64,000 bases of DNA from positions 19,616-83,615 of the forward strand of contig JBCDKA010000002.1 of assembly GCA_038747195.1 (NCBI GenBank), written 5' to 3'. The notes beneath the pieces are model-generated. The model ran no database searches, was not told the DNA's origin, and saw only the letters and a list, made by a program, of their open reading frames with translations. This document shows, piece after piece, positions 2 to 49,552 of the stretch. Position numbers and translations under genes: made by a program. Each line of letters begins with the position of its first letter. Within the stretch, counting starts at the first letter, position 1. Origin of the DNA: Pseudomonadota bacterium. Lineage in GTDB: Bacteria > Pseudomonadota > Gammaproteobacteria > Xanthomonadales > SZUA-38.

Positions 2-2116
2 GAGGTACGGGAAGACACGCCGACGCTGATTACGCTGGACGGATCGGACCCCGATCCGCTGGACATGCTGACCTTCAGCATCACTGAGATGCCGCAGCAC
101 GGAACGCTGACCCTGAGCGGCAACCAGGCGACCTATACACCCGATCTCAATTTTGTCGGCGAAGACCACTTCAGCTTCAACACGAGCGACGGTCTCGATA
201 CCTCGGCCAGCGAGGCGGTCACCATCCTGGTGGAAAACGTCAACGATCCCGCCGTTGTAACGTTCGACGAAGCACCGATTACGGCAGCGCGGGGTTTTGA
301 CACCCTGTTGGAAGGCACGCTGACCGACCCGGACGCCGCGGACAAACACTCCCTTCTGGTGCGATGGAATGACGGCACCCCGGATGAACCCGAGGGGGAG
401 GTCACCATGATGGGCACGATCACCGGCCCCATGCTAATGGAGCGGGCCACGGGTGACGGCTCAATCCGAGCCAGCCATGTATTCGAGAACGCCGGTTTGT
501 TTAGCGTCCAGTTCTGCGTCACTGACCAGATTGACGACTCCAGCGGGAACAAGGTTCCGACGGCGGACTCGCTCACGCTGTGTTCGCCGGTCGATGTGCA
601 GGTCGAGGACCTCTTGGATCTGACGCTGACCGTGAGCGGACCCGACGTGCTTGTGCGAGGCCAGTCGAGCAACTACGAAGTCACGCTGACCAATGAACAG
701 CCGTCGAGCGGCTCGGGTCTCACCGCGACTGGCCTGACCGCCACCGTCGACATCGATCCGGTGCTGATCACCTCAGCACCGGCGGGCTGCACGCTGACCG
801 GCAGCCGGGCGACGTGCAGCTTCGGGGATCTTGCTCCTGGGGAAAGCGATACCATCACCATTCCGATCATCGTGCCGGCAGACCCCGGCGGCGCCAGCAG
901 CGTGACCAGCGAGGTCGAAGTGCTGGTGGATCAAGCTGATAGAAAAGGAGCCAACAAACTGGTTGTCACGACGCCGCTGGCGACTGATGCGGACATCATC
1001 ATCGGTGGAGCGGGCGATCAGGAACTGGCGGATGATGAGGATGCGGTTCCGGGCGACGGTCTCTGTGAGGGCAACAACACCGGGACATGCAACCTGCGGG
1101 CCGCAGTCATGGAAGCCAACGCGTCTGCGTCAGTCAACTCGATCGCGCTGGGCAACGGCGTGTTTGCATTGACGCGAATGCCCCCAGGCTTGACCAAGTC
1201 TTCGGCCCTGGGCGACCTGGACGTGACCGAAGACCTCACGATCACCGGCAACGGTCCGCAGTTCACGTTTATCAATGCGGGCGGCGTCGACCGGGTCCTG
1301 GACGTAAGCGCAACCCTCGTGCTGGAAGGCGTGACGCTGTCAGGCGGGCTCTCCGCTGAGGGGGAGGGTGACAACGGCGCCGCGATTCGCGTAACCGGCG
1401 ACGGCCGGGTAGTGCTGCGCAACGTGCGAATCACCGGCAACGACGCGGCGGGCGCGGGCGGCGCCATCTGGGTCGACAGCACCCAGCCGGACGCGCTGCT
1501 GATCGAAAACAGCGTGATCAGCGCCAACACCGCTGCAGACGGCGCCGGGGTTGTCATGGTGAACGGCGGCGCTCAGCTCACAAACGTGACCTTCTCAGCG
1601 AACCGCGCCAGCGGTGATGGCGGAGCATTCCTGCTTCAGGGTGGCACGATGACCTTGCTGAACGTGACGGTAGCCGGGAACTCCGCCGTTCGTGGCGGAG
1701 GTGTGCTGCTGGACGGCGGCACGCTGGACACTACCAATACGCTGCTGGCAGACAATGCAGCAAGCACCGGCGCGGACTGCCAGTCGCTCGGCGGCAGCCT
1801 GATCTCCGGCGGCGGTAACCTGGTGGAACGGACCGACGGCTGCAGCGGCTGGAACCCCAGCCTCGACAAGCTCAGCGCACCGCCAGGTATCACCGAGCTG
1901 CTGGACAACAGCGGACCGACCCGAACCTACGCACTGCTGCCTGGCAGCCCGGCGCGGGACGGCGGTGTCCTGGCAACCTGTCCAGGAACCGATCAGCGCG
2001 GCCAGCCGCGGGCGACAGACGGGGTAGGAAACGGCCGGCCCGGCTGCGACATCGGCGCCTTCGAGGCGGCCGCGGTGCCGCTGCAGGAGACCATCTTTGC
2101 CAACTCGTTTGAGTGA
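2..2116 (+). CDS. Large exported adhesin-like protein, 5'-truncated by the window edge (cadherin-like / PKD-like / DUF11-like modules plus CSLREA-capped right-handed beta-helix)
   Basis: The frame of track ORF 65..2116 stays open back to nt 2 (EVREDTPTLITLDGSDPDPLD, no stop). Motifs: VENVNDPAVV (cadherin-like linker), HVFENAGLFSVQFCVTDQ (PKD-like), DUF11-like repeat (YEVTLTNE...CSFGDLAPGES), GTCNLRAAVMEANA (CSLREA-like), repeated GGA/GGG beta-helix rungs, CDIGAFE, terminal IFANSFE. Collinear paralog of the C-terminal ~690 aa of 13225..18741. Confidence 0.85.
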   Translation, partial: EVREDTPTLITLDGSDPDPLDMLTFSITEMPQHGTLTLSGNQATYTPDLNFVGEDHFSFNTSDGLDTSASEAVTILVENVNDPAVVTFDEAPITAARGFDTLLEGTLTDPDAADKHSLLVRWNDGTPDEPEGEVTMMGTITGPMLMERATGDGSIRASHVFENAGLFSVQFCVTDQIDDSSGNKVPTADSLTLCSPVDVQVEDLLDLTLTVSGPDVLVRGQSSNYEVTLTNEQPSSGSGLTATGLTATVDIDPVLITSAPAGCTLTGSRATCSFGDLAPGESDTITIPIIVPADPGGASSVTSEVEVLVDQADRKGANKLVVTTPLATDADIIIGGAGDQELADDEDAVPGDGLCEGNNTGTCNLRAAVMEANASASVNSIALGNGVFALTRMPPGLTKSSALGDLDVTEDLTITGNGPQFTFINAGGVDRVLDVSATLVLEGVTLSGGLSAEGEGDNGAAIRVTGDGRVVLRNVRITGNDAAGAGGAIWVDSTQPDALLIENSVISANTAADGAGVVMVNGGAQLTNVTFSANRASGDGGAFLLQGGTMTLLNVTVAGNSAVRGGGVLLDGGTLDTTNTLLADNAASTGADCQSLGGSLISGGGNLVERTDGCSGWNPSLDKLSAPPGITELLDNSGPTRTYALLPGSPARDGGVLATCPGTDQRGQPRATDGVGNGRPGCDIGAFEAAAVPLQETIFANSFE

Positions 2117-2133
2117 CGTTTCCCGGTCGGGTC

Positions 2134-3075
2134 CTAGTTGCGCTCGAGGGAGCCGACCGCGCGCTGCTTGGCGCCCGCAATGGGCACAATTTTTGTCGAG
2201 TGACCAAACCAACCAGCCACGGTCGATTTCTTGCGTCGACTGATCGGGATCTTGAGGTCGTTGGTCAGCAGGCAATACCACTGTTGTCCGTCCCTGACGA
2301 TTTTCATGATGGCGTGGCGCGCAACCCAGTGGGCGCGATGTACGCGCATGCCGTTGTCCCCCAGCGCATCGGCAGCCCGCTGCAGGGACCCCAGGACCAT
2401 ACATTGGCCCAGGTCTGTGTGGATATGCAGGTAGTGCAGATCCGACGAAATAGCCAGGACGTTGGTGCCGAGAGACTCGGGGATGTCGCTCAAGAACTTA
2501 TTGCGAACGTCCTCTGCGTATCGTCCCGACTCGTCCTTTTCTACCTCCACCTCGTTGCGACCATTACCGTCCCCGTCGGGACCCGGCGGTCCGTTGTGGA
2601 CCGGTTTTGCTGACAAAAAAGGCAGGTTGATCGCCATCCATACCAGCAGCACCTGAGGTCCGTCTTCCAGGAATTCGGCCAGGAGACCCTGCCAAATGCC
2701 CTGGCTCTCGAAGACGTCCAGCCAGTCGCCGTCGTTGGACATCCACCACTCGGGCTGAATGCGCTCGATCAGGTAACCGAAGGGGGCCATCAGCGTGGCG
2801 CCGGCAATTCCGGCGATCACCAGGGCGAGCCAGGGCGGCAAATGGCGAATGATCCTGGGGAGCAGGAACCAGCTCGCGGCATACAGCGCAGCGAGCGCCA
2901 GACCGACGTTGGTCGTCCAGAACGCGATCCGTTCAAAAAACTTGAGCCCCTGGCTTGCTTCCGGCTCCATGAGTACGAAGATGGCCACCAGCGTTGCGCC
3001 CACGATGATAATCGATCGGCCCAAGGGCCAAAGACCAAATACCGTACCGTTGCTAACGTCCACGTGGCGATTCAC
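2134..3075 (-). CDS. Membrane-embedded LytTR-domain DNA-binding protein
   Basis: C-terminal LytTR-like block (ISSDLHYLHIHTDLGQCMVLGSLQRAADAL...VHRAHWVARHAI...IPISRRK) after about four hydrophobic helices. Track ORF 2134..3426 overlaps the upstream receptor gene. I place the start at GTG 3075 (alternatives GTG 3063 or ATG 2970), so the start is uncertain. Confidence 0.7.
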   Translation of the reverse strand: MNRHVDVSNGTVFGLWPLGRSIIIVGATLVAIFVLMEPEASQGLKFFERIAFWTTNVGLALAALYAASWFLLPRIIRHLPPWLALVIAGIAGATLMAPFGYLIERIQPEWWMSNDGDWLDVFESQGIWQGLLAEFLEDGPQVLLVWMAINLPFLSAKPVHNGPPGPDGDGNGRNEVEVEKDESGRYAEDVRNKFLSDIPESLGTNVLAISSDLHYLHIHTDLGQCMVLGSLQRAADALGDNGMRVHRAHWVARHAIMKIVRDGQQWYCLLTNDLKIPISRRKKSTVAGWFGHSTKIVPIAGAKQRAVGSLERN

Positions 3076-3104
3076 CGTGTTTACTGCCTGTCCCGATTCC
3101 AGCT

Positions 3105-13094: not shown

Positions 13095-13224
13095 CCCTGC
13101 CATAGCCCTGCAGGCCGATCGATCCTAGTGCAACCTGGAGGCAGACTTGTGCAACCAGGGTGACAGATCAGAGGGCGTAACTCTGGCAAGCTAAATGGCA
13201 TTCCACGGAGCGGGAGTGCGGCTT

Positions 13225-16200
13225 ATGTCAGGAAAAAAGACCTTTTTTGCGGTTATCTGCGGTTTTTGGCTCATCTGCGAAGCGGGTACTGCCGCAACGC
13301 CACCAGAGCTGTCGGGGCTGACTGCGCTGCTGTCGTCTGACAAGTCAGGCGGAGACGGGGAGCTGACGCGGCACACGCTGCAGACGCTCCCCTATCGGCA
13401 GGGGCGGATTACCCTTATCGAACCCCTGGTCCTTCAGTTCTCAGCGCCGCAAACGCGCTTTGTTGCGCAGCTGGACGATCCGGCTGGCGACTCGATCTAC
13501 GCGATCGAAGCCTTTCGCGGAACGGAATCGCTCGCGCTGGAGCGTTTTGCCTTGGGTGACCAGAAGCTGCCCAGCGTCAGGCCCGCGCCCGATGGCATGC
13601 TCTCCCTGAGCACCACGCAACCCTTTGACCGGGTGGAAATCCGCGAGATCCATGGTCGAGCTTCGAGCGATCCGGAGTACGTCGAGGCGCTCTATGCTGG
13701 GAATCCGTCGCAGAAAGGCGGGGGCAACGCCGATGCGCTCATCTGTCAGGTCCCGCTGGGCCTCACCTACAACGTCGCCTTTGGAGTTGCGCTCGTGGCG
13801 TTCGACCCCCTAACGGTGACCGCCGCAAACGCCGCGGCATACACGTCAAATCTGGGGCTGAAGTTCTGCAAAACGGTGATCGAGCCGCCGGCGGATATCG
13901 TGCGCTCGGTTGTACCCGGCCAGTGCGTGAAGAATTTTCTCCAGCCGCACATGGTGGCGGAGTACGAAAACGCCCTGGGCGTGCCGCTGAAATTTGAATA
14001 CAACTGGGGCCAGCTCGGTACGCCGATTGTCTTCCATCACAATACCGAGGTGGAGGTCAGTCTCCAGTTCGATTCACCGCCTTCGCCAAGCGTCGAAAAT
14101 TTCAGCCTTCGCGCCCTGCTGACCGATTCGTCGCTCGACGGCACCGATGCCATCTATCGCGAGTGTGACGACAAGAACGGCACGAAGCGCTTCAGTCAGC
14201 TGGAGCCGGGGGTCGGCCCACGCTACGAGTGCCCGTACGTAGTCAATCGCGAGCTGGCGGTGCCGGTCGGCGAGAATACGCTCGTCTGGCGTGCTAACGC
14301 CAAGATGGGTCTCCTGGACCTATTCTCCCCGCTGATACCCGGCGTACCCACCGGCGCCAAGGTGCCGTACTACAAATCGATCCTGCTGCGCGTTGCGCAG
14401 GAAGCGCTGCTGATCGCCAGCGACTTCTTCCTCGGCGGCTGGCGCTGGGGCAACACGAGCGTGGCGTTTCAGACGGTCACGATTATCGATGACCGACCGC
14501 CGCAGATCCTTCCGGAACCGGAAAATGCCGCCATGCTCGAAGGGCGGATCACCGCCATGCTGATCAACGACGAGCTGCGGGTGCAGATCGAGGCGGACGA
14601 GCCGGGTGGCGTTTCAACTCGCCGCTACGAGCCGCTGCTGAAGCAGCTTTACCGGGTATTTGATCCTTGCGATCGGCCGGTGACGTTCACTGCGGCGTAT
14701 CCGAACGGTGGGCTGCGCACCTTCTGGCCGGTCAGCACGCAGGCCCAGGACCAGAGCTTCACGATCACCTGGACCGCCGAGGACCTCGGCCCCAACAACA
14801 ACGGCGTCCCCAACCAAACGCCGGCCACCATGCGGGTTGAGGTCGTGGATATTCGCCCGCCAGCGCTGCTGCCGCCGCCGGATATTGTCGAGATAACGGG
14901 GCAAACCGTGAGCGAGCTGGGTCAGCCGCTGGTGTTCGACTTTGTCGACTTAGACCCGCTCATCACCAACAACGCCAGCCTGCCGTTGGGGCAGGGTCTG
15001 ACCGAAGTGACCTGGACTGCCACCGACGCGTCCGGCAACAGCACAACGGCGGTGCAGCTGGTCAACCTCAAGGCGAGCAACGCTGATCCCACCGCGGATG
15101 CTCAAACGGGCGCCAATAGGGAGGAGGCTGTTTCCTTTGAGCCCACCACGCTGCGCCTGACCGGCAGCGACCCGGACGGTGACCCGCTGCGCTTTTTTGT
15201 GGAGCAGTATCCCGAGAACGGGTTCTTTGTGGCCCCGCTTTATCCCTACTTTGTCGAAGACTTTCGGGTTGCCCGAAACGTACCGACCGGAGACCTTTTC
15301 GACCAATTCTGCGACCCGGCCAATGCCGAGCAGGACTTCCAGATCAAGTATCCGGTGGAGCCGAGTTTTATCGACGTTTCCGAAGACGGCAGGACATTCG
15401 TGATGGACCGCGGCCGAATCGACTGCCGCGGTGGCGGGACAGCCAGCCGACGGCCACGCATCGCGGTCTTTCCGGCGGGCTTTGACCCCGACGGCAGCGA
15501 ATCGCCGCTGGCGATCCAGACGGCGGAGCCCGCCGATCTTGTGGTCGATGAGTTCAATCAGCTGATGGTGGTCACCACCAACTCAAGCGGTGGTGACGCA
15601 TTCGTGCGCACCTATGACTTTGCCCTGAACCAGGTGCAGGCTTACGACCTGGACGACGTAGACGATCGGGCAACCGGGACCTGCACCAACTTTGGCACGA
15701 ATAATTTTTGCGAGATTCGCGAGGCCCGCAGCGCGGTGGTCGACGCCAACGGCGTGCTCTACGTGATGGACGTAAAGGGGAGAATCTACGCCCTGGAACT
15801 GGTCGATGACACCACCTCGGCCACGCAGTTCATCGATTACCTGTCGGACGACGTGACCAACAGCAGCAATACGAACGTCTCGTCGCGCGCGCTGGCGCTG
15901 GACGCTGACGGGTTTGTCTACGCCACCCGCAACAACCGCATCTACAAATACGGACCCTCCTGGGTGGATGCTGACGGATTGGTTCAGATTGGTGAACCAA
16001 TCGGCTGGCTGGGCCGTTGCGACGTGGACCTGGCGCCGGGACAGGACGCGGTCTGCGACGTGACTAACCGCCGCAGCCTGGGTTTTTCCTGCACGGACGC
16101 AACCTGCAGTATCGATGATGCCATCACCCAGGAAGAAAAGGATTTCTGCGGTCTGACCTTCTCCAACCTGGGCAACTTCGGCTGCCGGCCGGGCCAGTTT

Positions 16201-18741
16201 CGCAGTCCCCTGGGGCTGGACATCGATCCGCGAGGCAACATCTACGTCGCGGATAACGCCAACCAGCGCATCCAGCGCTTTACGCCGGAGGGTTTTTTCG
16301 CCGGCGAAGCGGAGTCGGAGTGTGACGGCAGCTGTTTTGTCCTGGGCGACTTCGGCAATCCGCAGGATATCTCGGTCAACTCCGGCCGCTTTTACATCCT
16401 GGACCCGAGCACCAACCTGCTGCATATATCGCTGCTCACGCCGTTCACCGACCAGGGCCCGGACTTTGCTGAATTGGTCTATCAATCGAACAACGACTTT
16501 GGCGCACTGAACCCGGCTGAATCGGTTGATCAGTTTGCGTTCAGCGTCAGCGACGGCGTGCGCGACCCCGACAGCGGTCAGCCGGCTCGCACCGCGCCCG
16601 CCACGGTGGAGATTGCGGTGCGCCGCAACTTCCGACCACCGACGGCCACGCCGGGCATCAGCGCCGTAGCCCTGGAGGATGTTGAAACACCGATCATGCT
16701 GGACGGCGCGGAGCTGGATCCGCTGGACGTACTCACCTTCAATCTGATCGATCCACCGACCAAAGGCAGCGTGATCGTCGTTGGTGACGAGGCGCGCTAT
16801 CTGTCCGACCCCAACTATGTCGGGCCAGATAGTTTCACCTTCGCTGCTTTCGACGGCCTGGATGAATCGGCGCCGGAACGAGTAGAGGTTGACGTCCTGA
16901 ACGTGAACGATCCGCCGGTAGTCAGCCCCTTGGATGACGCGCAGGTGAGCACTGGCTTTACCTTTACTCTGCGTCATGACTTTGATGATCCGGACGCTAA
17001 AGATTTGCACGGCCTGGCCATCAACTGGGGTGACGGCACTGCGTCACCGGAAGGCGAGATCGACATGAATGGCCAGCTGACGGGTCCGATCCTGGATGAG
17101 GGTGATGTCGGGCCCGGTCGGATCACCGCTGAGCATGTCTACACAGCGGCGGGCAGCTATACGCTGGAGGTTTGCGTCACCGACCAGATGGTGGGCTCGG
17201 GTTCCAGCAAGGTCCCGACGGCGCAGACCACCACCGGATGCGCCGAGGCGACGGTGACCGTGATCGACGGTTTGGACCTCCAGCTTTCCGGCTCGCCCTC
17301 AAGCGACGCCGCACTGCCCGGCCAGATTGTTGGCTACGAGTTTTCCGTTGAGAACCTGACGCCGAGCGCCGGCGCAGGGCAGACGGCCACCGGTGTGGAA
17401 ATGACCATCGACGTGGCGCCGGAGTTTGAGCTGAATTCCATCGCCGCCGCGGGATGTCAGCGCAGCGGCCGGCAGCTGCGCTGCGCCCTGGCTGACCTGG
17501 CGCCCGGGGCAACCGCCGCCGTCAACGTCAGCGCCCGAGTGCCCTTCGATGTCGATCTCGGCCTGCGCCTCCGGACCGACGTGCGGGTGACCCAGGATCA
17601 GTCGGACCAGACGCCAGACAACACGCTCGCCCAGATCACGCCGGTCTTAAGGCCAGCGGATCTTCAGGTGGGCAGCACGGAAGAAGCGCTGACCGACAAA
17701 GGTGACGTTAATGCCGGTGACGGACTATGTGCCAGCGAGGACGGCGTCTGCACGCTGCGGGCTGCCATCGAGGAGGCGAACGCGCTGCCGGGCCAGCAGT
17801 CGATTGCGCTGGGCAGCGGCACCTATCAGGTCGGGGAGACTGCACCACTGAATGTCACCGACAGTCTGACGCTGCTTGGCAATGGCGCTGAGCGTACGAT
17901 CATTTTTGGTAACGCTGGCTTCACGGCGCTGGTCAACGAGGCCGGCGCAACGCTGCGCCTGGAAGATCTGACGATCAGCAGCGAAGGCGGCGGCCTCAGC
18001 GCGCGGGGCGACCTGTTTACGCGTGGGGTCCGATTTACCGCCAACCGGGTGAACGGTTCTTTTGGCGCCGCCGTTTTTGCGGATTCGAATGTCGATCTTC
18101 GTGACACCACCTTCGATGGCAACCAGACGTCCGCCGACGGCGCGGCGCTCTTTAATATCTCGGGCACCAGCTATCTGGAGAACGTCACCGTGGTGGGTAA
18201 CCGCGGTGGAGGCCTGGTGTTCAACGATGACGCGACGCTGGTCAACCTGACGATCACCGGCAACAGCGGTGGCTGCTGCTGGGTGACGACGTCCGCCGCT
18301 CTGAACGCCTTCGGGTCCGGCACGGTGGTAACCCTGGTCAACTCGATGCTCGCAGGAAACTCACCCTCCGCGGCCTTTTTTGCTGGGCCCGATTCGCCGC
18401 CAAACTGCGTCACTGCCGACGGTGGCAGCATCGTGTCACTGGGCAACAACCTGCTCGGAGATTTAGCGGGTTGTGAGCTGTCGCCGCTGCCCAGCGATAT
18501 TCTCGCCGAAGATGCGGACCTGAATCCCATCGGGCCCAACGGCGTTCTTGTGCCGACCCTGAATCCTCGGATTACCTCGCTGCTGGTGGATGGTGGTGAT
18601 GCCGACAGCTGCCCCGCCGGGGATGCCCGAGGAATTTCTCGTCCGGAAGACGGCAATGGTGACGGCAGCGCATCGTGCGATATCGGTGCGGTTGAGCTCA
18701 GAGAGGATGGACTGTTTGTCTCCGGTTTCGAAGAACTGTGA
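13225..18741 (+). CDS. Giant exported multidomain adhesin-like protein (HYR-like, NHL, cadherin-like, PKD-like, DUF11-like, CSLREA-capped beta-helix)
   Basis: Signal peptide from ATG 13225 (MSGKKTFFAVICGFWLICEAGTA); the track start is 13195. HYR-like GLTEVTWTATDASGNSTTAVQLVNL, NHL repeat GQFRSPLGLDIDPRGNIYVADNANQRIQRF, LNVNDPPVV, PKD-like HVYTAAGSYTLEVCVTDQ, DUF11-like repeat, GVCTLRAAIEEANA, beta-helix rungs, CDIGAVE, terminal LFVSGFEEL. Confidence 0.9.
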   Translation: MSGKKTFFAVICGFWLICEAGTAATPPELSGLTALLSSDKSGGDGELTRHTLQTLPYRQGRITLIEPLVLQFSAPQTRFVAQLDDPAGDSIYAIEAFRGTESLALERFALGDQKLPSVRPAPDGMLSLSTTQPFDRVEIREIHGRASSDPEYVEALYAGNPSQKGGGNADALICQVPLGLTYNVAFGVALVAFDPLTVTAANAAAYTSNLGLKFCKTVIEPPADIVRSVVPGQCVKNFLQPHMVAEYENALGVPLKFEYNWGQLGTPIVFHHNTEVEVSLQFDSPPSPSVENFSLRALLTDSSLDGTDAIYRECDDKNGTKRFSQLEPGVGPRYECPYVVNRELAVPVGENTLVWRANAKMGLLDLFSPLIPGVPTGAKVPYYKSILLRVAQEALLIASDFFLGGWRWGNTSVAFQTVTIIDDRPPQILPEPENAAMLEGRITAMLINDELRVQIEADEPGGVSTRRYEPLLKQLYRVFDPCDRPVTFTAAYPNGGLRTFWPVSTQAQDQSFTITWTAEDLGPNNNGVPNQTPATMRVEVVDIRPPALLPPPDIVEITGQTVSELGQPLVFDFVDLDPLITNNASLPLGQGLTEVTWTATDASGNSTTAVQLVNLKASNADPTADAQTGANREEAVSFEPTTLRLTGSDPDGDPLRFFVEQYPENGFFVAPLYPYFVEDFRVARNVPTGDLFDQFCDPANAEQDFQIKYPVEPSFIDVSEDGRTFVMDRGRIDCRGGGTASRRPRIAVFPAGFDPDGSESPLAIQTAEPADLVVDEFNQLMVVTTNSSGGDAFVRTYDFALNQVQAYDLDDVDDRATGTCTNFGTNNFCEIREARSAVVDANGVLYVMDVKGRIYALELVDDTTSATQFIDYLSDDVTNSSNTNVSSRALALDADGFVYATRNNRIYKYGPSWVDADGLVQIGEPIGWLGRCDVDLAPGQDAVCDVTNRRSLGFSCTDATCSIDDAITQEEKDFCGLTFSNLGNFGCRPGQFRSPLGLDIDPRGNIYVADNANQRIQRFTPEGFFAGEAESECDGSCFVLGDFGNPQDISVNSGRFYILDPSTNLLHISLLTPFTDQGPDFAELVYQSNNDFGALNPAESVDQFAFSVSDGVRDPDSGQPARTAPATVEIAVRRNFRPPTATPGISAVALEDVETPIMLDGAELDPLDVLTFNLIDPPTKGSVIVVGDEARYLSDPNYVGPDSFTFAAFDGLDESAPERVEVDVLNVNDPPVVSPLDDAQVSTGFTFTLRHDFDDPDAKDLHGLAINWGDGTASPEGEIDMNGQLTGPILDEGDVGPGRITAEHVYTAAGSYTLEVCVTDQMVGSGSSKVPTAQTTTGCAEATVTVIDGLDLQLSGSPSSDAALPGQIVGYEFSVENLTPSAGAGQTATGVEMTIDVAPEFELNSIAAAGCQRSGRQLRCALADLAPGATAAVNVSARVPFDVDLGLRLRTDVRVTQDQSDQTPDNTLAQITPVLRPADLQVGSTEEALTDKGDVNAGDGLCASEDGVCTLRAAIEEANALPGQQSIALGSGTYQVGETAPLNVTDSLTLLGNGAERTIIFGNAGFTALVNEAGATLRLEDLTISSEGGGLSARGDLFTRGVRFTANRVNGSFGAAVFADSNVDLRDTTFDGNQTSADGAALFNISGTSYLENVTVVGNRGGGLVFNDDATLVNLTITGNSGGCCWVTTSAALNAFGSGTVVTLVNSMLAGNSPSAAFFAGPDSPPNCVTADGGSIVSLGNNLLGDLAGCELSPLPSDILAEDADLNPIGPNGVLVPTLNPRITSLLVDGGDADSCPAGDARGISRPEDGNGDGSASCDIGAVELREDGLFVSGFEEL

Positions 18742-21610: not shown

Positions 21611-21857
21611 CACCAACACTCTCCCAAAACGATCCAGGACACTAGCACCGCAGCCTCGCGAAAACTGCGAACTCTGTCGGGCACTCCAAGCAACTCGGGT
21701 TCACCGTGACCTGATGCGAAGCGTCGGGTACGTCCGACCCAAGTGTTATCGGTCTGTCGTAAGGAGAATTTAAGAACGCCGTGAGCCAGAAGCGTCTTTC
21801 GAAATCGGTTTGCCTTCGCTTGAGGGTCGGCGCCGCAGCGACGCCGACCACGGAGAT

Positions 21858-36198: not shown

Positions 36199-39100
36199 AT
36201 GCCGCGTTTGCGTTTCGTGTCTCTTTTCGTTTTCTTGCTCGGCCCATCGTTGTTGCACGCCGGCGAAAGCATTCAGTTTCGTTTTGAACAAGCGTTGCCC
36301 ACGCTGCAGCAGCCCTGGTTCTTCGGGCTGCGCGGGGGAATTGCCGTAGATGAGGACAACTTCGTCTATGTCACGGAGCGCGATACTGAGGTTATTCGCA
36401 AGTTCAACCGCTCTGGCTTGCTTGTCACAAGCTGGGGTCGGCGAGGCACGGGTGACGGCGAGTTTGCTGGCCCTCATGACGTCGCGCTGAGTGACGACGA
36501 TCGGGTTTATATCACCGATGAGTTCAATCATCGCGTTCAGATTTTCACCCGGGATGGCGTTTACCTCGCGCAGTTTGGTGCCTTTGGAAGCGGCGACGGC
36601 CAGCTGAACCGGCCGACTGGAGTTGCTCAGCACCAGGGGTTTGTCTACGTTGCCGACAGCGAAAATTTCCGGATCCAGAAGTTTACCAGCGACGGTGACT
36701 ATGTCGGCCAGTGGGGCAGCGAAGGCAGCGGCAACGGCCAGTTTCAACGCCCCGAAGACATCGCCATCTCGCGTACGGGATTTGTTTACGTCATTGACCA
36801 GGCCCGACCGTTTATCAACTACGAGAACACTCGTGTTCAGTATTTTGATACGGAGGGCAACTTTATTGGAACGTGGGGCTCTACCGGCACCGGGCTGGGG
36901 CAGTTCCAGGAGCTCGTCGCCATCGAGGTGGATCAGTTTGGCGTTGTCTTTACGTTAGACGAGGATGGCCGGATTCAGCGCTTCACCCCGGACGGCCTGG
37001 GGGTTTCTCAATTCACGATGGATCCTGACGAACTGCCTATCAATCGACCGAGCGGGATTGCCAAAGCCCCGGACGGGCGCATATACGTTCGCGATGTCTC
37101 GCGCGTCTCCCAGTTCCTGCCGACCGGGCAGTTTGCTGATCGCTGGGGCAGCCTGGGTGATGAGCTTGGCCAGTTCAATTTTCCGCTGGGTATTGCGGCC
37201 CAGGCCAACGGTAACCTGCTCGTGTCGAATATCTTCAACAACCGGGTACAGGTCTTCACGCCGGAGGGTATGCCGTTGTCGTCATTCGGCGGTCCCGGGA
37301 GTCCTGGGGAGCTCATCGGACCGGGGCAAATTGCCGTGAGCGCACAGGGCGATATTTATCTGAGCGAACTCACGTCAAGCCGCGTCAGCGTATTCGACGA
37401 GAATTTTAATTTCATCCGGCGAATCGGTAGTTTTGGTTCGGGAAATGGTGAGTTTGACCTCCCGCGTGGCGTAGGGATCGACAGCCAAGGTTTTGTTTAC
37501 GTGGCCGACGGCAACAACCATCGCGTTCAGAAGTTTACCCCTGACGGGACCTACGTTGATCAGTGGGGCGTCAGGGGGAGTGAAAACGGGAACTTCGAAA
37601 GACCCAACTCATTAGTGGTTGGGCCCGGCGATCTCATTTACGTAGCCGATCGCGATCTCGACCGGATTCAGATCTTTGAATCTGACGGAACATTTGTGAG
37701 CGTTTTTGGCGAGAGCGGTACGGGTCCGGGGCAGTTCAATATTCCGGAAAGTATGGCGTTTGATTCGTTTGGCTTCCTTTACGTTGCTGATGTGTTCAAC
37801 GATCGATATCAGGCCTTTACGGCCAATGGGGAGTATGTTGGCAAGTACGATATGCCGGGCGTGGCACCCGGCTCGTTGACCCGGCCTGGCGGCATCTATT
37901 TCGATAACAGCCAGCGGGTTTTCATGGTCGATGGCCGAAATAACCGCCTGCAGCGGTTCAGCCGAGTTGAGTTGCTGCCGGATTCTAAGGTTGTGGTTGT
38001 CGCGGGCGGCGGCCCTTATCCGGGAAATCCCTTGTGGGACGCCACCCAGGTCAACGCCAACTTTGCGTACCGAACGCTAGCCGTTCAGGGTTTCACCGAC
38101 GACCTCATCTACTATCTAACGCCGAACCTGGACCTGGATCTGGACCAAAACGGGAACTCTGATGAAGTGGACGGTGTGCCTACCGCACAGGCTTTGCGGG
38201 AGGGGATTCTGGGATCCTTTGGCGCAGACGCCGACAATCTCACTCTCTATCTCGTAGATCATGGCGGTGACAAAACGTTTCGACTGACCGAGAACGAAAT
38301 CCTCAGCTCGAGTGAGCTCGATAGCTGGTTGGACGAGTGGCAGGCGACCCGGCCCAACGGCAACGTCACCTTGATTTACGACGCGTGCCAGTCGGGCTCT
38401 TTCCTGGATGAACTTCGTGATCCCAATCGGATTCTGATTGCCTCGGCAGGCGCCGAAGAAGCCGCCTATTTTGTTTCCCAGGGCTCCCTGTCATTTTCGA
38501 ATCGCTTCTGGAGCCAGATCTTTAACGGAGCAACGCTGGGCGAAGCCTATGATCTGGCCAGCCAGGCCACCTCAACGGCGTTCCCGCTGCAAAACCCCCT
38601 GCTCGACGCTGACGGCGACGGTAGCTTCAATACGGCTGCCGACCTGGCGGCAATCGAAAATTTGGTGATTGGAGCGGGCACCGAAGTGGACGGTAACGCG
38701 CCGGTGATCACCAGCGTCAGCCCCGTTCAGAACCCGACCGCGAGCACCGCAACGATCGAAGCCAACGGCGTCACCGATGCCGACGGCATTGCCCGGGTGT
38801 GGGCCGTGCTTCGTCCCCCGGGTTTTGCGCCAGACTCGGCCGATAATCCGGTGCAGGATCTCCCGACCGTTGAGCTTACCCAGCAGCCCGGCACAGCTGA
38901 CTATCAGGCGGAGTTTAGCGATTTCACCATTGCCGGAACCTACGATATATCGATTGAGGCCCAAGATCGTATTGGCAATACCGCGATCCCGAGGCTGACC
39001 CAGGTGGTAGTGGGCACACCCGTCAGGCGCCGCGCGGTCATCATCGGTGGCGGTGATCCGTCCGCGCCGGAATTTGCAAACCTGAAGACCAACAGCGATC

Positions 39101-40062
39101 TGGCGCTGGCGGCGCTTAACCTCCAGGGCTACGGGCCTGACGGGATCACCTGCAATGATCCGAGCTGCGACGATGTGTACTACATGACGAGCGGATCCTC
39201 CACCGGCTCCGACGCGGGCACCAACCTGACTAACGTTGAATTTGCGATCACCAGTTTTGGCGTCGACAACGCCGAAGACTTGACGGTTTATCTGGTTGCG
39301 CCCAAGTCCGGTGCTGGCTACCGTCTGAACAACACCGAAATCCTCGACGCAGCAACGCTGGACGGGTGGCTCGATACCGCTCAGGCGACGTTGCCCGGCG
39401 TATTGACGGTGATTGTTGATGCTGATGACGCGCAGACCTTTATGCAGGGTATTGCCCCAGATGGTGGACAGACGCGTTTTCTGGTGGCGAGCACGGACGT
39501 CGACGAAAATGCGAGCTTTGAGCTGGGCGGCGAGGTGTCCTTCTCTCGCTTCTTTTGGAATCAGACGCTGAATGGCGCGCGCCTGCGCCAGGCGTTTCAG
39601 GTCGCGCGTCGGGCGATCAATCTGACACAAAACGCCCAGCTCGACGTGGATGGCAACGGCGTGCCGAATCAGATTACCGATGCGCTGGTCGTCGACGATT
39701 ACTTCATCGGCTCCGGCGTGGCCCTGGCTGGTGATGACCCCTTTGTTTCCGAGGTGATGGTCAACGCTGAGCTGGTCAGCGATTTTGAATCCATCACTGC
39801 TACCGGCGTCACCTCTACCGGCTCGATCGATCGGGTGGTTGCGATTGTGGCCCAGCCGGATGGTGCGCTGGTGACCCAGCCGTTAGCGACGGTCGGCGAC
39901 GCTTTCTCCGACCGCAGCTTTGGGCTGTGCGGTCCCGCCGGAAGTTATGGTGTTGCGGTGCATGCCATCGACGCCGAGGGCAACGTATCGCTTCCAGCTG
40001 AGGCGACGGTGAACCGCGCCACGGACTGCGCAGACTTTCAGTTTGCCTCCGGGTTCGAGTAA
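36199..40062 (+). CDS. Exported NHL-repeat propeller protein with tandem [C13 legumain-like module + Ig-like domain] x2
   Basis: Signal peptide MPRLRFVSLFVFLLGPSLLHA. More than 12 NHL repeats (G.G.GQF..P.G[IV]A.D..G..YV[AT]D..N.R[IV]Q.F). First C13-like module: YLVDHGG (His codon 38260..38262) and IYDACQSGSF (Cys codon 38386..38388). The 42-residue spacing compares with 41 in human legumain (FTDHGS ... IEACESGSM). The second module has VAPKSG / VDADDAQTF at the equivalent positions. Terminal FQFASGFE. Confidence 0.85.
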   Translation: MPRLRFVSLFVFLLGPSLLHAGESIQFRFEQALPTLQQPWFFGLRGGIAVDEDNFVYVTERDTEVIRKFNRSGLLVTSWGRRGTGDGEFAGPHDVALSDDDRVYITDEFNHRVQIFTRDGVYLAQFGAFGSGDGQLNRPTGVAQHQGFVYVADSENFRIQKFTSDGDYVGQWGSEGSGNGQFQRPEDIAISRTGFVYVIDQARPFINYENTRVQYFDTEGNFIGTWGSTGTGLGQFQELVAIEVDQFGVVFTLDEDGRIQRFTPDGLGVSQFTMDPDELPINRPSGIAKAPDGRIYVRDVSRVSQFLPTGQFADRWGSLGDELGQFNFPLGIAAQANGNLLVSNIFNNRVQVFTPEGMPLSSFGGPGSPGELIGPGQIAVSAQGDIYLSELTSSRVSVFDENFNFIRRIGSFGSGNGEFDLPRGVGIDSQGFVYVADGNNHRVQKFTPDGTYVDQWGVRGSENGNFERPNSLVVGPGDLIYVADRDLDRIQIFESDGTFVSVFGESGTGPGQFNIPESMAFDSFGFLYVADVFNDRYQAFTANGEYVGKYDMPGVAPGSLTRPGGIYFDNSQRVFMVDGRNNRLQRFSRVELLPDSKVVVVAGGGPYPGNPLWDATQVNANFAYRTLAVQGFTDDLIYYLTPNLDLDLDQNGNSDEVDGVPTAQALREGILGSFGADADNLTLYLVDHGGDKTFRLTENEILSSSELDSWLDEWQATRPNGNVTLIYDACQSGSFLDELRDPNRILIASAGAEEAAYFVSQGSLSFSNRFWSQIFNGATLGEAYDLASQATSTAFPLQNPLLDADGDGSFNTAADLAAIENLVIGAGTEVDGNAPVITSVSPVQNPTASTATIEANGVTDADGIARVWAVLRPPGFAPDSADNPVQDLPTVELTQQPGTADYQAEFSDFTIAGTYDISIEAQDRIGNTAIPRLTQVVVGTPVRRRAVIIGGGDPSAPEFANLKTNSDLALAALNLQGYGPDGITCNDPSCDDVYYMTSGSSTGSDAGTNLTNVEFAITSFGVDNAEDLTVYLVAPKSGAGYRLNNTEILDAATLDGWLDTAQATLPGVLTVIVDADDAQTFMQGIAPDGGQTRFLVASTDVDENASFELGGEVSFSRFFWNQTLNGARLRQAFQVARRAINLTQNAQLDVDGNGVPNQITDALVVDDYFIGSGVALAGDDPFVSEVMVNAELVSDFESITATGVTSTGSIDRVVAIVAQPDGALVTQPLATVGDAFSDRSFGLCGPAGSYGVAVHAIDAEGNVSLPAEATVNRATDCADFQFASGFE

Positions 40063-40740: not shown

Positions 40741-40921
40741 CCCGTTGCGGGCGGCGACCACTCGTGTTCATGAGCCGCACCGTGACCCGTCTTGGTGACC
40801 AATTGCGCTTCGATAAGATAGCGGGACGGCAAATGGCTGCGGTTGTGTATCGTCGAGGATTCCTGGGTTGAATCCTGTGGCCGATGCTATCAATCCGCTC
40901 TTGCACTCAGGAGACTCCGGT

Positions 40922-42379
40922 ATGCGCACAATAACAACCCTAATAACGCTACTCAGTTTGTTCGCCGGCAGCGCCTCGGCGCAGCTAGAGTTCGGCGCCA
41001 ACGATTTTCGGATCACCACGTTTGGGCCGGACGGCACCAACGCCTTTGGCGCAATTCGCCCGGAGATCGCCTACAACAGCAGCGCCGATGAGTATCTGGT
41101 GATCTTCATCGCCAATACGGACCAGGGGCCAACAGCTCCGTCGGAGGTGGAGCTTTGGGGGCAGCGGGTGGGGCCTGACGGAAGCCTTTTGGGCCGGCCA
41201 ACGCTGCTGACCGATGTCGGCGGCATCGGCGCGGTCGGCGCAACACCGAACTTCTACCGCGTCATCTACGTGCCCTCAAGAAACGGCTATTTTGTGAGCT
41301 ACAGCGCCGCTGACTCGGATTTCGGGGATACCACTTTCAGGGTTTATGGGCTGTTTTTAACCGCTGCCGGCGCGCCGGACGGCGCGGCGTTTCAGCCGAC
41401 GTCGGGTGGCACCACCGTTACCAACCAGCGCGGTGAGTTTTCTCCGGACATCGTCTACAACTCAGTCGATGACAACATTCTGCTCGCCTGGGAGCGCAGC
41501 ACGGACGCGGCAGAGGCGGCGATCTTTGCCCGTCTGCTGTCGGCCAGCGACGGCAGCCCCGAAAGCGCAGAGATCCAGGTGGATTCTGTGAACGTCTTTT
41601 CGGTGGACGTTGCGGTTGCCCATAACGCCTCGGACAACGAATTCCTGGTGCACTGGCGACGCGGTTTCAGCCAGTCGACGATGTTTCAGATCCTCGACGA
41701 TGCGGCGCAGCCTCAGCTGATGGCGGATCGGGAGCTCGCCAGCCCTGGATACTTCTCGGGCAAAAGCAGCGTCGCGTTCGATCCCGACGCGCAGCAGTAC
41801 CTGGTCGTATGGGTCAACTCTGATCCGGCCCTGGGAACGGTGGAAGGGGCGTACGAGATCTTTGGCCGTCGCGTCGCTGCCGGCGGCGATCTGCTGGGAA
41901 CGGATAAGTTTCGAATCAGCCAGTCAGACGGCCTCGATACGCTGGCTTTTGGTGCCAACGTGGACTGTGGCCCCAACAACCCGTGTCTGGGGACCGCTCG
42001 ACCAGGTATCGACTACTCGAATTTCGAGGATGCCTTCGTCGTTTCCTGGAGCAGCACGCTGCTCCAGACTGACCCTGCCGAGATGCAGACCAACCAGCTC
42101 GACAGCCTGGTCAGGCGCATCGCCTCCGGGCAGGACGCCGACCCGGCAAGCCCGCAGGTGCAGATCAGCAATGCGGGCGGCCAGGAGTTGGGCTTCTTTG
42201 GCGTTCACGCGGTTATCGCTGCCGGTGCCGGCGGTCGGTATCTGGCGACCTGGTGGGGTGACGACAACCGCAACGGGGGAAGTCAGTCGGAAACCGAGGT
42301 CTGGGGACAGGTGCTGCTGGCCAACTCGCTGCGCGATGTTTTCGTAGATAGCTTCGAGAGCCCTCCGCCCGGACGCTAA
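40922..42379 (+). CDS. Exported hypothetical protein with about seven degenerate internal repeats (propeller-like)
   Basis: Signal peptide MRTITTLITLLSLFAGSASA with AGGAGA upstream. Repeat pattern P.I.YN...[DN].[FY]LV.W.....E[IV][FW]G[QR]RV...G.LLG recurs. Terminal VFVDSFESPPPGR. Confidence 0.75.
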   Translation: MRTITTLITLLSLFAGSASAQLEFGANDFRITTFGPDGTNAFGAIRPEIAYNSSADEYLVIFIANTDQGPTAPSEVELWGQRVGPDGSLLGRPTLLTDVGGIGAVGATPNFYRVIYVPSRNGYFVSYSAADSDFGDTTFRVYGLFLTAAGAPDGAAFQPTSGGTTVTNQRGEFSPDIVYNSVDDNILLAWERSTDAAEAAIFARLLSASDGSPESAEIQVDSVNVFSVDVAVAHNASDNEFLVHWRRGFSQSTMFQILDDAAQPQLMADRELASPGYFSGKSSVAFDPDAQQYLVVWVNSDPALGTVEGAYEIFGRRVAAGGDLLGTDKFRISQSDGLDTLAFGANVDCGPNNPCLGTARPGIDYSNFEDAFVVSWSSTLLQTDPAEMQTNQLDSLVRRIASGQDADPASPQVQISNAGGQELGFFGVHAVIAAGAGGRYLATWWGDDNRNGGSQSETEVWGQVLLANSLRDVFVDSFESPPPGR

Positions 42380-42776: not shown

Positions 42777-42777
42777 G

Positions 42778-43497: not shown

Positions 43498-43788
43498 GGT
43501 TTTTGTCCTTTGGGCACCGGGTGGCGGCCATGTTCACATCCTGAAGATGAATCCGGTCGGCCAGACTCGCCGCCGCAATCGCTAACCCAGGCGCAACCGC
43601 CGACATGATCAGCGTAACACCGGTTTGCCGGGTGGCACCCAAAGCCCGGTGGCCAGCAGCCCAATCGCGACTGCGTCGACAAAAACTCATCGCGGCGCAG
43701 CGCGTGTACCACTCGCGGCTTTTGCCCTAGTGCGTGTCGTTTTTCTCGACCAATTGCGTAGTCAACAGGAGCAATGCAAGGAGCGAGC

Positions 43789-45516
43789 ATGGTGAGTATT
43801 CGATTGGTCATAGTTCTGATAGTGCTCTCAGGACTGGGCACCCCGCGGGTATCGATGGCTGGGAGCAAAGGGTTTGTCCTGCCGCCAGCGACCCTTCGTG
43901 TCGGCTCCGACCCCGCATGTGATTTTTCCTCGCTGGGAGACGCGCTAGATGCGGCCGCCGACCGCGATTTGATCCTGGTCAATAGCGGGACCAATTTTCT
44001 GACCAACGGTTTCGAAATCAATGAGAAGAGCCTGACGCTGATCGGCGGCTACCCCAGCTGCACGGCGGATGAGTCCGATCCCGACGCCCGGAGCGCGATG
44101 TCGGGAGTGGCCCTCAGCTCCGTGTTGGAGATTCAAAACGCGACGGCGACGCAAAGAACCGTTGTCGTTCGAAATTTTGTGATTCGCGGCGGCCGCTCAG
44201 ATCAGACAGGAGGCGGCGGTATCGATATCCGCGAAAACGTTCGGGTACGCCTCGATAACGTCTGGGTGCAAGAAAACGAGTCGACCACCGGCGGCGGGAT
44301 CAGCATCCGTGGCTTAGGGTTTCCTGCCTCACTGCGCCTGGAAGGTGGGACGCGCGTGGGCCTGGCTTCGGAGATGTTCGGCAATACGGCCTCCGAGGAG
44401 GGCGGGGGCATTTTCTGCCGCCGTGCCGCGATCGAGTGGGTGGACGCCACCATCGAATGGAATGCGGCTGAGGAAGGCGGGGGACTCTATGCGTTTGAGT
44501 GTCAGGTAACGACGCCACCGATTACCGATGATGGGCCCGCGCAAATCGTGGGGGCGCTCAACAACACGGCGGCCTCTATCGGCGGCGGGATCTCGCTCCG
44601 CAGCATCGGAGTCGGGGAGTCGTCCATCCAGCTGAGTAGTTCTCCCCAGCGGCAGATTCTCATCTCCGGCAATAGCGCTGGCGGGGACGGCGGCGGCGTG
44701 GCGCTCTCCGAATCGAGTTTCATTGGAGACGGCATCGCGATCGTCGACAATCAATCGGGAAATTCCGGTGGGGGTGTCCGGGTCTTTAGCTCGATTTTTG
44801 ATCTGGATCGAGGTGACGGTGGGACCTGTGCCAACCTGCAAAGATGTTCGCAGATCAGCGGCAACACCGCCGAGACGAGCGCTGGTGCCGTGTATGTGCT
44901 GTCGGGTACAGCCGATCTTCGCCAGACGTTCATCGACAACAACGAATCGGATCGCGCTCCGGTGATCCTGGCGACGGGTAGTGATTCGATGGTGGTTATG
45001 CGGAGCGTACAAATCTCTGGCAACGTGGAAACTGGATTGGTCAACTCAACGCTGATGTTCGGTTCCATGTCGGTGTTCGACATGAACTTTGTGACGGTGA
45101 CTGGCAACACGTCGGACAGGGTTATCGAGCTGATCAACAACTCGTCGCTGGCGGTGAGCAACAGCATCTGGTGGGAGCCGGCCATGGAACTGGTCGTCGG
45201 TGACGAATCCAGCGGGACGGCCAGCGCCTGCATGAACGCCAGCGACGACAGCAGCTTATCTGCCGATACCCGCGACCCGGAATTCGAAATTATTGTCCAG
45301 AACGGTCAGACCCCAATTTACGCGCTCGCCGACACCTCACCCAATGTGGACGCCTGCGCGGGGGTCGCCATGAAAGGTATGGGCCTGTCGGTGGACGCCC
45401 TCGGTGAGTCGCGCTTTGTCGATCAGCCGGACATCGCCAACGGTCCCGGATTTCAGGATCGCGGCGCCTTCGAACTTCAGCTGCCGCTGCTGTCCGACGG
45501 CTTCGAGGATCCCTGA
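43789..45516 (+). CDS. Exported right-handed beta-helix protein (polymorphic-membrane-protein-like GGG[IVL] rungs)
   Basis: AAGGAG lies 5 nt before ATG 43789 (track start 43774). Signal peptide MVSIRLVIVLIVLSGLG. Repeated GGGI/GGGL/GGGV/AGAVY rungs, QDRGAFE, terminal LLSDGFEDP. Confidence 0.8.
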   Translation: MVSIRLVIVLIVLSGLGTPRVSMAGSKGFVLPPATLRVGSDPACDFSSLGDALDAAADRDLILVNSGTNFLTNGFEINEKSLTLIGGYPSCTADESDPDARSAMSGVALSSVLEIQNATATQRTVVVRNFVIRGGRSDQTGGGGIDIRENVRVRLDNVWVQENESTTGGGISIRGLGFPASLRLEGGTRVGLASEMFGNTASEEGGGIFCRRAAIEWVDATIEWNAAEEGGGLYAFECQVTTPPITDDGPAQIVGALNNTAASIGGGISLRSIGVGESSIQLSSSPQRQILISGNSAGGDGGGVALSESSFIGDGIAIVDNQSGNSGGGVRVFSSIFDLDRGDGGTCANLQRCSQISGNTAETSAGAVYVLSGTADLRQTFIDNNESDRAPVILATGSDSMVVMRSVQISGNVETGLVNSTLMFGSMSVFDMNFVTVTGNTSDRVIELINNSSLAVSNSIWWEPAMELVVGDESSGTASACMNASDDSSLSADTRDPEFEIIVQNGQTPIYALADTSPNVDACAGVAMKGMGLSVDALGESRFVDQPDIANGPGFQDRGAFELQLPLLSDGFEDP

Positions 45517-48448: not shown

Positions 48449-48457
48449 CAATCCGCG

Positions 48458-49552
48458 CTAGAAGATCACACCCGGAATAATCCAGTCATCATCCCCTTCC
48501 AGCCCGTCGGAAAAGATCTGCGCCTCGTAGGCTCCCAGGTCCACCGCGGGTCCGACGATGCGCCCCATGCCGTCCGCGTCCCTCGGCGGCAGTCCGTCTG
48601 GCACCGGGAGCCCCGCGTCGATCAGCGGTGAGCCGATATTCGGGCTCACGCCAAGCGAGCCAAGACCGAGCTGCGGGTTTCCGCTGAGCGTGCCGGTTTC
48701 CTCCAGGGGATTTGAGCCGGCCAGTGAGTTCAAGAAGTTCCGATTGAGCCGGACGCTGGATCCCGCCAGCAGCAGGTCGTCCCCATTGTTGTCGGCAAAC
48801 ACGTTGTTGAGCAGGCGCACCGTGGCGTTTCCGCCGATCCGGACACCTGCGCCATCATCTGCTGCGGAGTTTTCGGCGATTGTCACGTTGGCTATGAGGT
48901 TCTCCGCGCCGTTCAGCAGCAGCTCGGCGGCGCCGCCATCACCGCCCGCCGCGTTCCGGAAAAACACGGAGTTCTCCAGACGCAGGCTGCCCCGGTCGAG
49001 AATGACATAAAGTCCGGCGCCCTGTTCGGTGGCCTCGTTGAGGTTAAAAATCAGCGTAGAGAACCGATACGACCCCTCCCAGTCCGGCGAAAAGGATCGG
49101 GCGTCGATGCCGCCGCCGTTGAGCGAGATGACGGGATCATTGGCGCCGCCGCGGGTGATCGTCAGGTTTTCGACCGCGATGTCGCCGCTGTCTGGACCCG
49201 GCTGAAGCACCAGCCCCTGAATCTGAAAATCGCCGTCGATGACGGTCAGTCGGGGGTTGTCTTTACGGCTGTCGCATACCGGCGCGTCCGGCGGATCAGG
49301 CGGGCCCCAGCCCCCCGACACCGTCAGGCCGCCGGGCTGGCTGGAGACGTAGCGAAAGCCGTTGTTGGCCGTGGGGACCAGGTACTGGCCCACCATCAAT
49401 CGGATTTCGTCAGTTTCGCTATTCCCGGCTGCGGCCAGCAGCGCGTTTTGGAGTGCGCTTGGGGTGCCGACGCAGAAGATCTCAGCGCGCGCGTTTGACG
49501 TCGCAAACGTCAGCGCCAAACTCAAGGTTATTCCAGAAAGTATCCGTTTCAT
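48458..49552 (-). CDS. Exported right-handed beta-helix protein
   Basis: AAGGAG lies 9 nt before ATG 49552 (track start 49609). Signal peptide MKRILSGITLSLALTFATSNARA. Beta-helix rungs (GGGI, GAGL, GGAA, GAGV), VDLGAYE, then IFSDGLEGDDDWIIPGVIF. Confidence 0.8.
   Translation of the reverse strand: MKRILSGITLSLALTFATSNARAEIFCVGTPSALQNALLAAAGNSETDEIRLMVGQYLVPTANNGFRYVSSQPGGLTVSGGWGPPDPPDAPVCDSRKDNPRLTVIDGDFQIQGLVLQPGPDSGDIAVENLTITRGGANDPVISLNGGGIDARSFSPDWEGSYRFSTLIFNLNEATEQGAGLYVILDRGSLRLENSVFFRNAAGGDGGAAELLLNGAENLIANVTIAENSAADDGAGVRIGGNATVRLLNNVFADNNGDDLLLAGSSVRLNRNFLNSLAGSNPLEETGTLSGNPQLGLGSLGVSPNIGSPLIDAGLPVPDGLPPRDADGMGRIVGPAVDLGAYEAQIFSDGLEGDDDWIIPGVIF

What the first reader, a model, noticed from the sequence alone, without database searches (positions are those of the whole stretch)
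2093..48517. Eight exported proteins share an extreme C-terminal [FL]-x-[DNS]-[GS]-[FL]-E tail: candidate undescribed sorting/processing signal
Seen directly, the C-termini read as follows. 2..2116: ...CDIGAFEAAAVPLQETIFANSFE*. 13225..18741: ...CDIGAVELREDGLFVSGFEEL*. 20129..21610(-): ...PDIGALELDPVTDTLFRDSFES*. 43789..45516: ...QDRGAFELQLPLLSDGFEDP*. 48458..49552(-): ...VDLGAYEAQIFSDGLEGDDDWIIPGVIF*. 36199..40062: ...ATDCADFQFASGFE*. 40922..42379: ...LRDVFVDSFESPPPGR*. 21858..23690(-): ...FVDDRLFADGFE followed by a 106-aa domain. Motif nucleotide positions are 2093-2113, 18712-18738, 20132-20155, 22179-22199, 40036-40059, 42338-42376, 45487-45513 and 48461-48517. All seven proteins with a visible N-terminus have Sec-type signal peptides. 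The carrier domains are unrelated (beta-helix, Calx-beta, NHL/C13, propeller-like repeat), so the tail behaves like a portable module. In five proteins it directly follows the D-[IL]-G-A-x-E end of a beta-helix of the kind annotated as 'choice-of-anchor' domains, which are named for being followed by alternative C-terminal sorting signals. This tail has no hydrophobic helix or basic cluster. It is therefore unlike PEP-CTERM, LPXTG, GlyGly-CTERM, MYXO-CTERM, IPTL-CTERM or a T9SS CTD, and I know of no named family matching it.
Basis: partly seen in the sequence, partly recalled or inferred. Interest (0 to 1): 0.85.

Follow-up and report, generated by a model that had tools for sequence, protein, structure and literature searches.

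The report
New C-terminal tag on Lysobacterales surface proteins
Many secreted, adhesin-like proteins in this bacterium and its relatives in the order Lysobacterales end in the same short tail, about F-x-D-G-F-E; it looks like an undescribed "address label" for putting proteins on the cell surface, but the machinery that reads it is unknown.

Summary
The eight tails are at the stated places. Across the whole genome (4.8 Mb, a Lysobacterales bacterium), 85–97 proteins end in [LIV]F-x-[DNS]-[GS]-F-E followed by 0–2 residues. Counting the same pattern inside proteins predicts about 1. The motif is about five times commoner on proteins with a signal peptide (p=1.6e-9). It is carried by about 48 unrelated families, mostly large Ig-, cadherin-, β-helix-, FG-GAP- and NHL-type surface proteins. 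In two unrelated proteins AlphaFold shows it as a conserved but disordered end beyond the folded domain. In orthologs the tail is kept within Lysobacterales. In other phyla the same domain families end instead in T9SS CTDs, RTX repeats, dockerins or hydrophobic/Arg-rich tails, the "choice-of-anchor" pattern. The motif is lineage-specific: abundant (often 20–80 per genome) in most Lysobacterales families, absent from one family, and at background level across the rest of the class. The genome has no PEP-CTERM/exosortase and no rhombosortase, and no NCBIfam/Pfam model or paper describes this tail. Best reading: an undescribed C-terminal targeting tag for surface localisation, read by an unidentified machine. 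One candidate processor, a self-tagged C13 protease, was tested and rejected.

The parts
1..2116 (+). P0001 choice-of-anchor Q / Big_9 / DUF11 / β-helix protein (gene begins upstream of window at G000:C2:16224); tail IFANSFE at 2093-2113
13195..18741 (+). P0002 1848-aa NHL/Big_9/DUF11/β-helix choice-of-anchor Q protein, tail LFVSGFEEL 18712-18738
20129..21619 (-). P0003 DUF1565/choice-of-anchor-Q β-helix protein, tail LFRDSFES 20132-20155; AF2 tail disordered
21858..23693 (-). P0004 Calx-beta protein; motif LFADGFE internal at 22179-22199, followed by a doubtful 106-aa extension
36199..40062 (+). P0005 NHL-propeller protein with GPI8/legumain-like C13 domain (His750 at 38260-38262, Cys792 at 38386-38388); tail FQFASGFE 40036-40059
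40868..42379 (+). P0006 PF22847-family protein (homologs elsewhere carry T9SS CTD, RTX, dockerin); tail VFVDSFESPPPGR 42338-42376; AF2 tail disordered
43774..45516 (+). P0007 choice-of-anchor Q protein, tail LLSDGFEDP 45487-45513
48458..49609 (-). P0008 β-helix choice-of-anchor Q protein, motif IFSDGLE then 12 more residues, 48461-48517

Best explanation
The tail is a lineage-specific C-terminal targeting tag of Lysobacterales (consensus D-x-[LIV]-F-[ARS]-[DSN]-[GS]-F-E plus 0-2 residues). Likely route: the proteins are made with a Sec signal peptide and reach the periplasm. The tag hangs free beyond the folded domain. It is then recognised by a still-unidentified envelope machine, probably at the outer membrane, that retains, anchors or exports the protein at the cell surface. 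In this role it stands in for the PEP-CTERM, T9SS CTD, dockerin and RTX modules that homologous domains carry in other lineages. Shown: the motif is real; it sits only at the C-terminus; it is tied to signal peptides; it is carried by many unrelated surface-type families and replaces other anchors in homologs; it is conserved in orthologs and restricted to one order; it is disordered; known sorting enzymes are absent. Inferred: that it directs surface localisation; whether it is cleaved or only docked; and what reads it.
For: C-terminal-only position: 85 vs ~1 expected; 89 ends in the last 10 residues. Signal-peptide enrichment: OR 5.1, p=1.6e-9; no lipoproteins among carriers. Cargo looks like surface/adhesin proteins (Big_9, cadherin, FG-GAP, β-helix, NHL, CARDB, Chlamydia PMP), typical of other sorting-signal cargo. 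About 48 unrelated families carry it. Kept in Lysobacterales orthologs of P0003 and P0006. Homologs elsewhere carry T9SS CTDs, RTX, dockerins, PWLILLLD and Arg-rich tails instead. P0005's closest curated relative is the PEP-CTERM protein ScyF. Disordered but conserved tail in two unrelated AF2 models. Order-restricted. No PEP-CTERM, exosortase or rhombosortase in the genome, and exosortase in only 3/201 order genomes.
Against: No recognising or processing machine was found. Function and localisation were not measured. Unlike all known sorting signals it has no TM segment or basic cluster, so the analogy is only partial. Its presence co-varies with the cargo families (a motif-negative family also lacks P0003 orthologs), so the tag may simply travel with its cargo. 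The crude signal-peptide rule misses some proteins.
Confidence: 0.55

Rival explanations
1. The tail is an export signal for release into the medium through a dedicated outer-membrane translocon (a secretion, not anchoring, variant), rather than a surface anchor.
For: Cargo includes enzymes (GSDH, C13 peptidases) as well as adhesins; tail disordered like a recognition peptide.
Against: Most cargo are large adhesin-like proteins typical of anchored proteins; no candidate translocon found.
Confidence: 0.15
2. The tail is a structural C-terminal element (a strand or metal site completing the folded domain), spread by domain shuffling, with no targeting role.
For: In 9 of 97 carriers it follows the β-helix DIGAxE end, and the nearly invariant F and E in the P0003 alignment could be structural.
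Against: AF2 puts the tail in a disordered region beyond the folded domain in two unrelated families. It sits on about 48 unrelated families, only at the C-terminus, and is restricted to one order.
Confidence: 0.08
3. A degron-like recognition tag for a periplasmic C-terminal-specific protease (Prc/CtpA-type), setting turnover of surface proteins.
For: Free C-terminal peptide; PDZ proteases read C-termini (known biology).
Against: The acidic end differs from Prc's nonpolar preference. Extra residues after the motif vary from 0 to 6. Prc is universal, yet the motif is order-restricted.
Confidence: 0.07
4. A signal read by the Type II secretion system.
For: The cargo are Sec-exported, and T2SS is common in Lysobacterales (knowledge, not tested).
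Against: T2SS substrates are known to be recognised by folded structure, not by C-terminal peptides (knowledge). One family with complete genomes lacks the motif.
Confidence: 0.05
5. Artefact of gene calling or chance.
For: None.
Against: DNA pattern including stop codon: 21 hits vs 0 controls in G000, 20-80 per genome in relatives, background elsewhere.
Confidence: 0.01

Closest known systems
PEP-CTERM / exosortase (XrtA) system
   Same: Short C-terminal tag on many unrelated Sec-exported surface proteins; lineage-specific; choice-of-anchor domains pair with it; P0005's nearest curated relative ScyF carries PEP-CTERM
   Different: No Pro-Glu-Pro motif, no TM helix, no Arg cluster; no exosortase in genome or order
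Bacteroidota T9SS C-terminal domain (PorU/PorV pathway)
   Same: Portable C-terminal module that directs exported proteins to the surface; some homologs of P0006 carry T9SS CTD; T9SS PorU is itself a CTD-bearing clan CD protease, paralleled by tail-bearing C13 proteins here
   Different: T9SS CTD is a ~70-100-aa folded Ig-like domain; this tag is ~10 residues and disordered; T9SS is Bacteroidota-only
MYXO-CTERM / JDVT-CTERM / GlyGly-CTERM / LPXTG (tripartite signals cleaved by myxosortase, rhombosortase, sortase)
   Same: Short C-terminal sorting-type motif on surface proteins, many per genome
   Different: All have motif + TM + Arg cluster (PMC11980579, 10.1101/2023.06.07.544157); this has none; no rhombosortase over cut-off
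NCBIfam choice-of-anchor Q domain (NF041518)
   Same: Carrier domain in P0001, P0002, P0007, P0008; the name implies alternative C-terminal anchors
   Different: The domain is the carrier, not the signal; tail also on ~40 other families
Xanthomonadales X-T4SS effector XVIPCD domain
   Same: Lysobacterales-specific C-terminal recognition region
   Different: XVIPCD is a long domain on cytoplasmic effectors without Sec signal peptides (from knowledge, not tested here)

Membership tests
PEP-CTERM | Pro-Glu-Pro signature motif | tested here: not met
   Tails read [LIV]F-x-D-G-F-E; TIGR02595 finds nothing in G000
PEP-CTERM | hydrophobic TM segment then Arg-rich cluster | tested here: not met
   Tail ends 0-2 residues after the motif and has no TM or basic cluster
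PEP-CTERM | exosortase present in genome | tested here: not met
   TIGR02602 absent in G000, found in 3/201 order genomes
T9SS CTD | 70-100-aa Ig-like folded C-terminal domain | tested here: not met
   Tail is about 10-15 residues and disordered in AF2
T9SS CTD | PorK/L/M/N/V machinery (Bacteroidota) | not tested
   Not searched; the host is a proteobacterium
MYXO-/JDVT-/CGP-CTERM | invariant Cys in the motif, then TM and Arg cluster | tested here: not met
   No Cys in consensus
GlyGly-CTERM | GG motif + TM + R cluster, rhombosortase | tested here: not met
   No such motif; TIGR03902 hits all below cut-off
NCBIfam/Pfam any described CTERM model | HMM match to the C-terminal 50 aa | tested here: not met
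   NCBIfam 20.0 at E<=10 on six C-terminal fragments: only carrier-domain hits; Pfam none
choice-of-anchor Q carrier domain | NF041518 match preceding the tail | tested here: met
   P0001, P0002, P0007, P0008 over cut-off, P0003 weak
PorU-like self-tagged clan-CD processor (C13 NHL proteins) | co-occurs with the tail across genomes | tested here: not met
   Large C13 proteins only in own family f1; absent from tail-rich families f3, f4, f9, f11

The most novel reading that the evidence does not exclude
Lysobacterales have an undescribed outer-membrane protein-targeting system. It reads a minimal, disordered 7-9-residue C-terminal tag with no TM anchor, placing dozens of adhesins and enzymes per genome on the surface. 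It does the job of T9SS or PEP-CTERM with a much smaller signal.
Probability: 0.4. Interest if true: 0.85.

Novelty: new variant of a known kind. Interest (0 to 1): 0.65.

Why it matters
If it is a sorting signal, it is the first common C-terminal sorting signal without a membrane-anchoring segment outside the T9SS. It would be carried on dozens of surface proteins per genome across a large, environmentally common order that includes plant pathogens' relatives, and it would point to an unknown envelope machine. It also makes the open question of how such proteins reach and stay on the surface directly testable: by phylogenetic profiling, and by tail-deletion reporters in a tractable strain.

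Tried and rejected
Candidate processor or partner: (1) A self-tagged clan-CD (C13, GPI8/legumain-like) protease, PorU-like. P0005 and 2-3 other tail proteins carry a C13 domain with the His/Cys dyad, but these proteins are confined to the genome's own family and absent from the tail-rich families. (2) Replacement of the PEP-CTERM/exosortase system: exosortase is missing from the genome and from 198/201 order genomes, so it does not sit in the tail-poor families either. (3) Rhombosortase/GlyGly-CTERM: below cut-off. (4) Structural cap of the β-helix: the tail is disordered in AF2 for two unrelated families and is carried by about 48 families. (5) X-T4SS XVIPCD: the carriers have Sec signal peptides and the tag is not a long domain (knowledge). 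(6) Artefact or chance: ruled out by DNA-pattern controls. (7) A neighbour search for a recurrent processing gene found only regulatory modules (ECF sigma, Ser/Thr kinase, TPR-OmpR regulators), none an obvious processor. (8) Literature and NCBIfam/Pfam searches found no described family.
Full report
Source and organism. The window is G000:C2:19616-83615 of a 4.8 Mb, 374-contig draft genome that is 89% complete. By names of orthologs it belongs to the order Lysobacterales (Xanthomonadales). The closest relative of P0003 is a 'Lysobacterales bacterium' MAG at 92% identity; homologs at 65-75% identity come from Wenzhouxiangella, Xanthomonadales and Lysobacteraceae.

Observation. Seven are at the very C-terminus. 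In P0004 the motif is internal and followed by 106 residues that score weakly as coding. A 1-nt shift just after the motif would end that protein FADGFE-SR-stop, so the 'domain' after it is doubtful. The seven proteins with a visible N-terminus have signal peptides by inspection (P0005 from Met63 at 36199).

Genome-wide test. I called 3982 genes with a codon-usage model. [FL]x[DNS][GS][FL]E ends within the last 12 residues of 85 proteins, against about 1 expected from its frequency inside proteins. A looser consensus gives 97 against 14. Motif ends cluster in the last 10 residues (89) against 0-5 per 10-residue bin further in. 0-2 residues follow the E in 69 of 85 cases. The logo is D(-8) x L/I/V F [A/R/S] [D/S/N] [G/S] F E. 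Among complete genes the motif is on 48/1375 signal-peptide proteins against 16/2265 others (OR 5.1, p=1.6e-9), and several of those 16 have signal peptides my crude rule missed. No carrier is a lipoprotein. Carriers are larger than other exported proteins (median 558 vs 329 aa). A DNA pattern for motif+stop matches 21 times with 0 reversed-pattern controls.

Portability and cargo. The 97 carriers fall into about 48 BLAST families, and only 9 end with the choice-of-anchor β-helix DIGAxE. A Pfam scan of 56 carriers shows a surface-protein repertoire: Big_9 (12), Cadherin_5/4/3 (9/6/2), β-helix (9), FG-GAP repeats (5+3+3), NHL (5), Chlamydia PMP (5), DUF11 (3), C13 peptidase (3), CARDB, He_PIG, G8 and GSDH. 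NCBIfam puts choice-of-anchor Q on P0001, P0002, P0007 and P0008. P0005's nearest curated relative is the PEP-CTERM protein ScyF.

Homologs. P0003 orthologs in Lysobacterales (63/120 close hits) keep the tail. More distant homologs in Arenicellales end ...PWLILLLD, in Anaerolineales ...RLYLPxL, and in Acidobacteria and others with other ends. Homologs of P0006's PF22847 domain in other phyla carry T9SS type-A CTDs (PF18962), RTX repeats, a dockerin, Arg-rich tails or Gly-rich ...GCSLIR tails. This is the choice-of-anchor pattern, with FxDGFE as the Lysobacterales choice.

Structure. AlphaFold2 with a 43-sequence alignment models P0003 at mean pLDDT 91. Its tail (491-496) is below 50, disordered even though F494 and E495 are nearly invariant in the alignment. 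P0006 with 26 sequences gives the same result: tail 491-503 below 50. So the tail is a conserved free peptide, not part of the domain fold.

Taxonomic range. Across 201 genomes of the order, 141 carry the motif+stop pattern, often 20-80 times (exact-end form only). Tail-rich families: f1 14/14, f3 8/8, f4 25/25, f9 24/24, f11 24/24. Family f2 carries it in 1/25 complete genomes, and f7, f8 and f12 have few. Across 300 genomes of the wider class, counts are 0-2, the same as the controls. Tail-poor f2 genomes also lack P0003 orthologs.

Known systems. The genome has no PEP-CTERM domain and no exosortase, and exosortase is in only 3 of 201 order genomes. Rhombosortase hits are all below cut-off. 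All described small C-terminal sorting signals have motif + TM + Arg cluster (10.1101/2023.06.07.544157; PMC11980579); this tail has neither. NCBIfam 20.0 and Pfam find no model for it, and no paper in the searchable library describes it.

A candidate processor tested. P0005 carries a GPI-transamidase/legumain-like C13 domain with the His750/Cys792 dyad. The genome has about six such proteins, three of them tail-bearing. This recalls PorU, the T9SS sortase that itself carries a CTD. But the large C13 proteins occur only in the genome's own family and are missing from the tail-rich families f3, f4, f9 and f11, so they cannot be the general processor.

Context. Tail genes cluster somewhat: the window holds 8 in 48 kb, and 15 tail-gene pairs lie within 3 genes of each other against about 6 expected. 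Recurrent neighbours are regulatory: Ser/Thr kinases (12), ECF sigma factors, and TPR/OmpR-like regulators. In the window, P0007, an ECF sigma gene, a kinase gene and P0008 sit in a row.

Verdict. The best-supported reading is a new C-terminal targeting tag for surface proteins, read by an unknown envelope machine (confidence about 0.55). That it works as a sorting signal rests on its parallels with known systems; localisation and processing were not measured. A full phylogenetic profile and tail-deletion reporters are the decisive tests.

Noticed in passing
window 45579-46235 (+), 46235-48448 (+): ECF sigma factor and a 737-aa Ser/Thr kinase sit between tail proteins P0007 and P0008. Genome-wide, 12 kinase and 4 ECF-sigma paralogs lie within 4 genes of tail genes, suggesting regulatory modules that control surface-protein genes.
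   Followed up: partly
window 36199-40062 (+) and G000 C3, C22, C118, C218: NHL-propeller proteins with a GPI8/legumain-like C13 domain and conserved His/Cys dyad; several carry the tail. This protein family is expanded (5-15 per genome) only in the genome's own family.
   Followed up: yes
window 21858-22178 (-): P0004 continues 106 codons past its FADGFE motif with weak coding signal; a 1-nt shift would stop it two codons after the motif. It may be a sequencing or frameshift issue.
   Followed up: partly
window 23888-26269 (-), 49703-51373 (-), 55339-57600 (-), 62745-63998 (-): Several large TPR proteins fused to OmpR-type DNA-binding, TIR or MalT-like regions recur near tail genes.
   Followed up: no
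P0150, P0152, locus L019: Some non-Lysobacterales homologs carry the motif followed by a conserved extension FxDGFE-SGDTAAW..., possibly an ancestral longer form.
   Followed up: no
P0138, P0141, P0149; P0003 homologs P0111/P0112: Other homologs end in Gly-rich ...GGGCSLIR or ...CFPVxxxxVxVCL tails with a Cys near the end, possibly other undescribed C-terminal signals.
   Followed up: no
window 1-2116: P0001 begins outside the window (full gene G000:C2:16224-21731, 1835 aa).
   Followed up: yes
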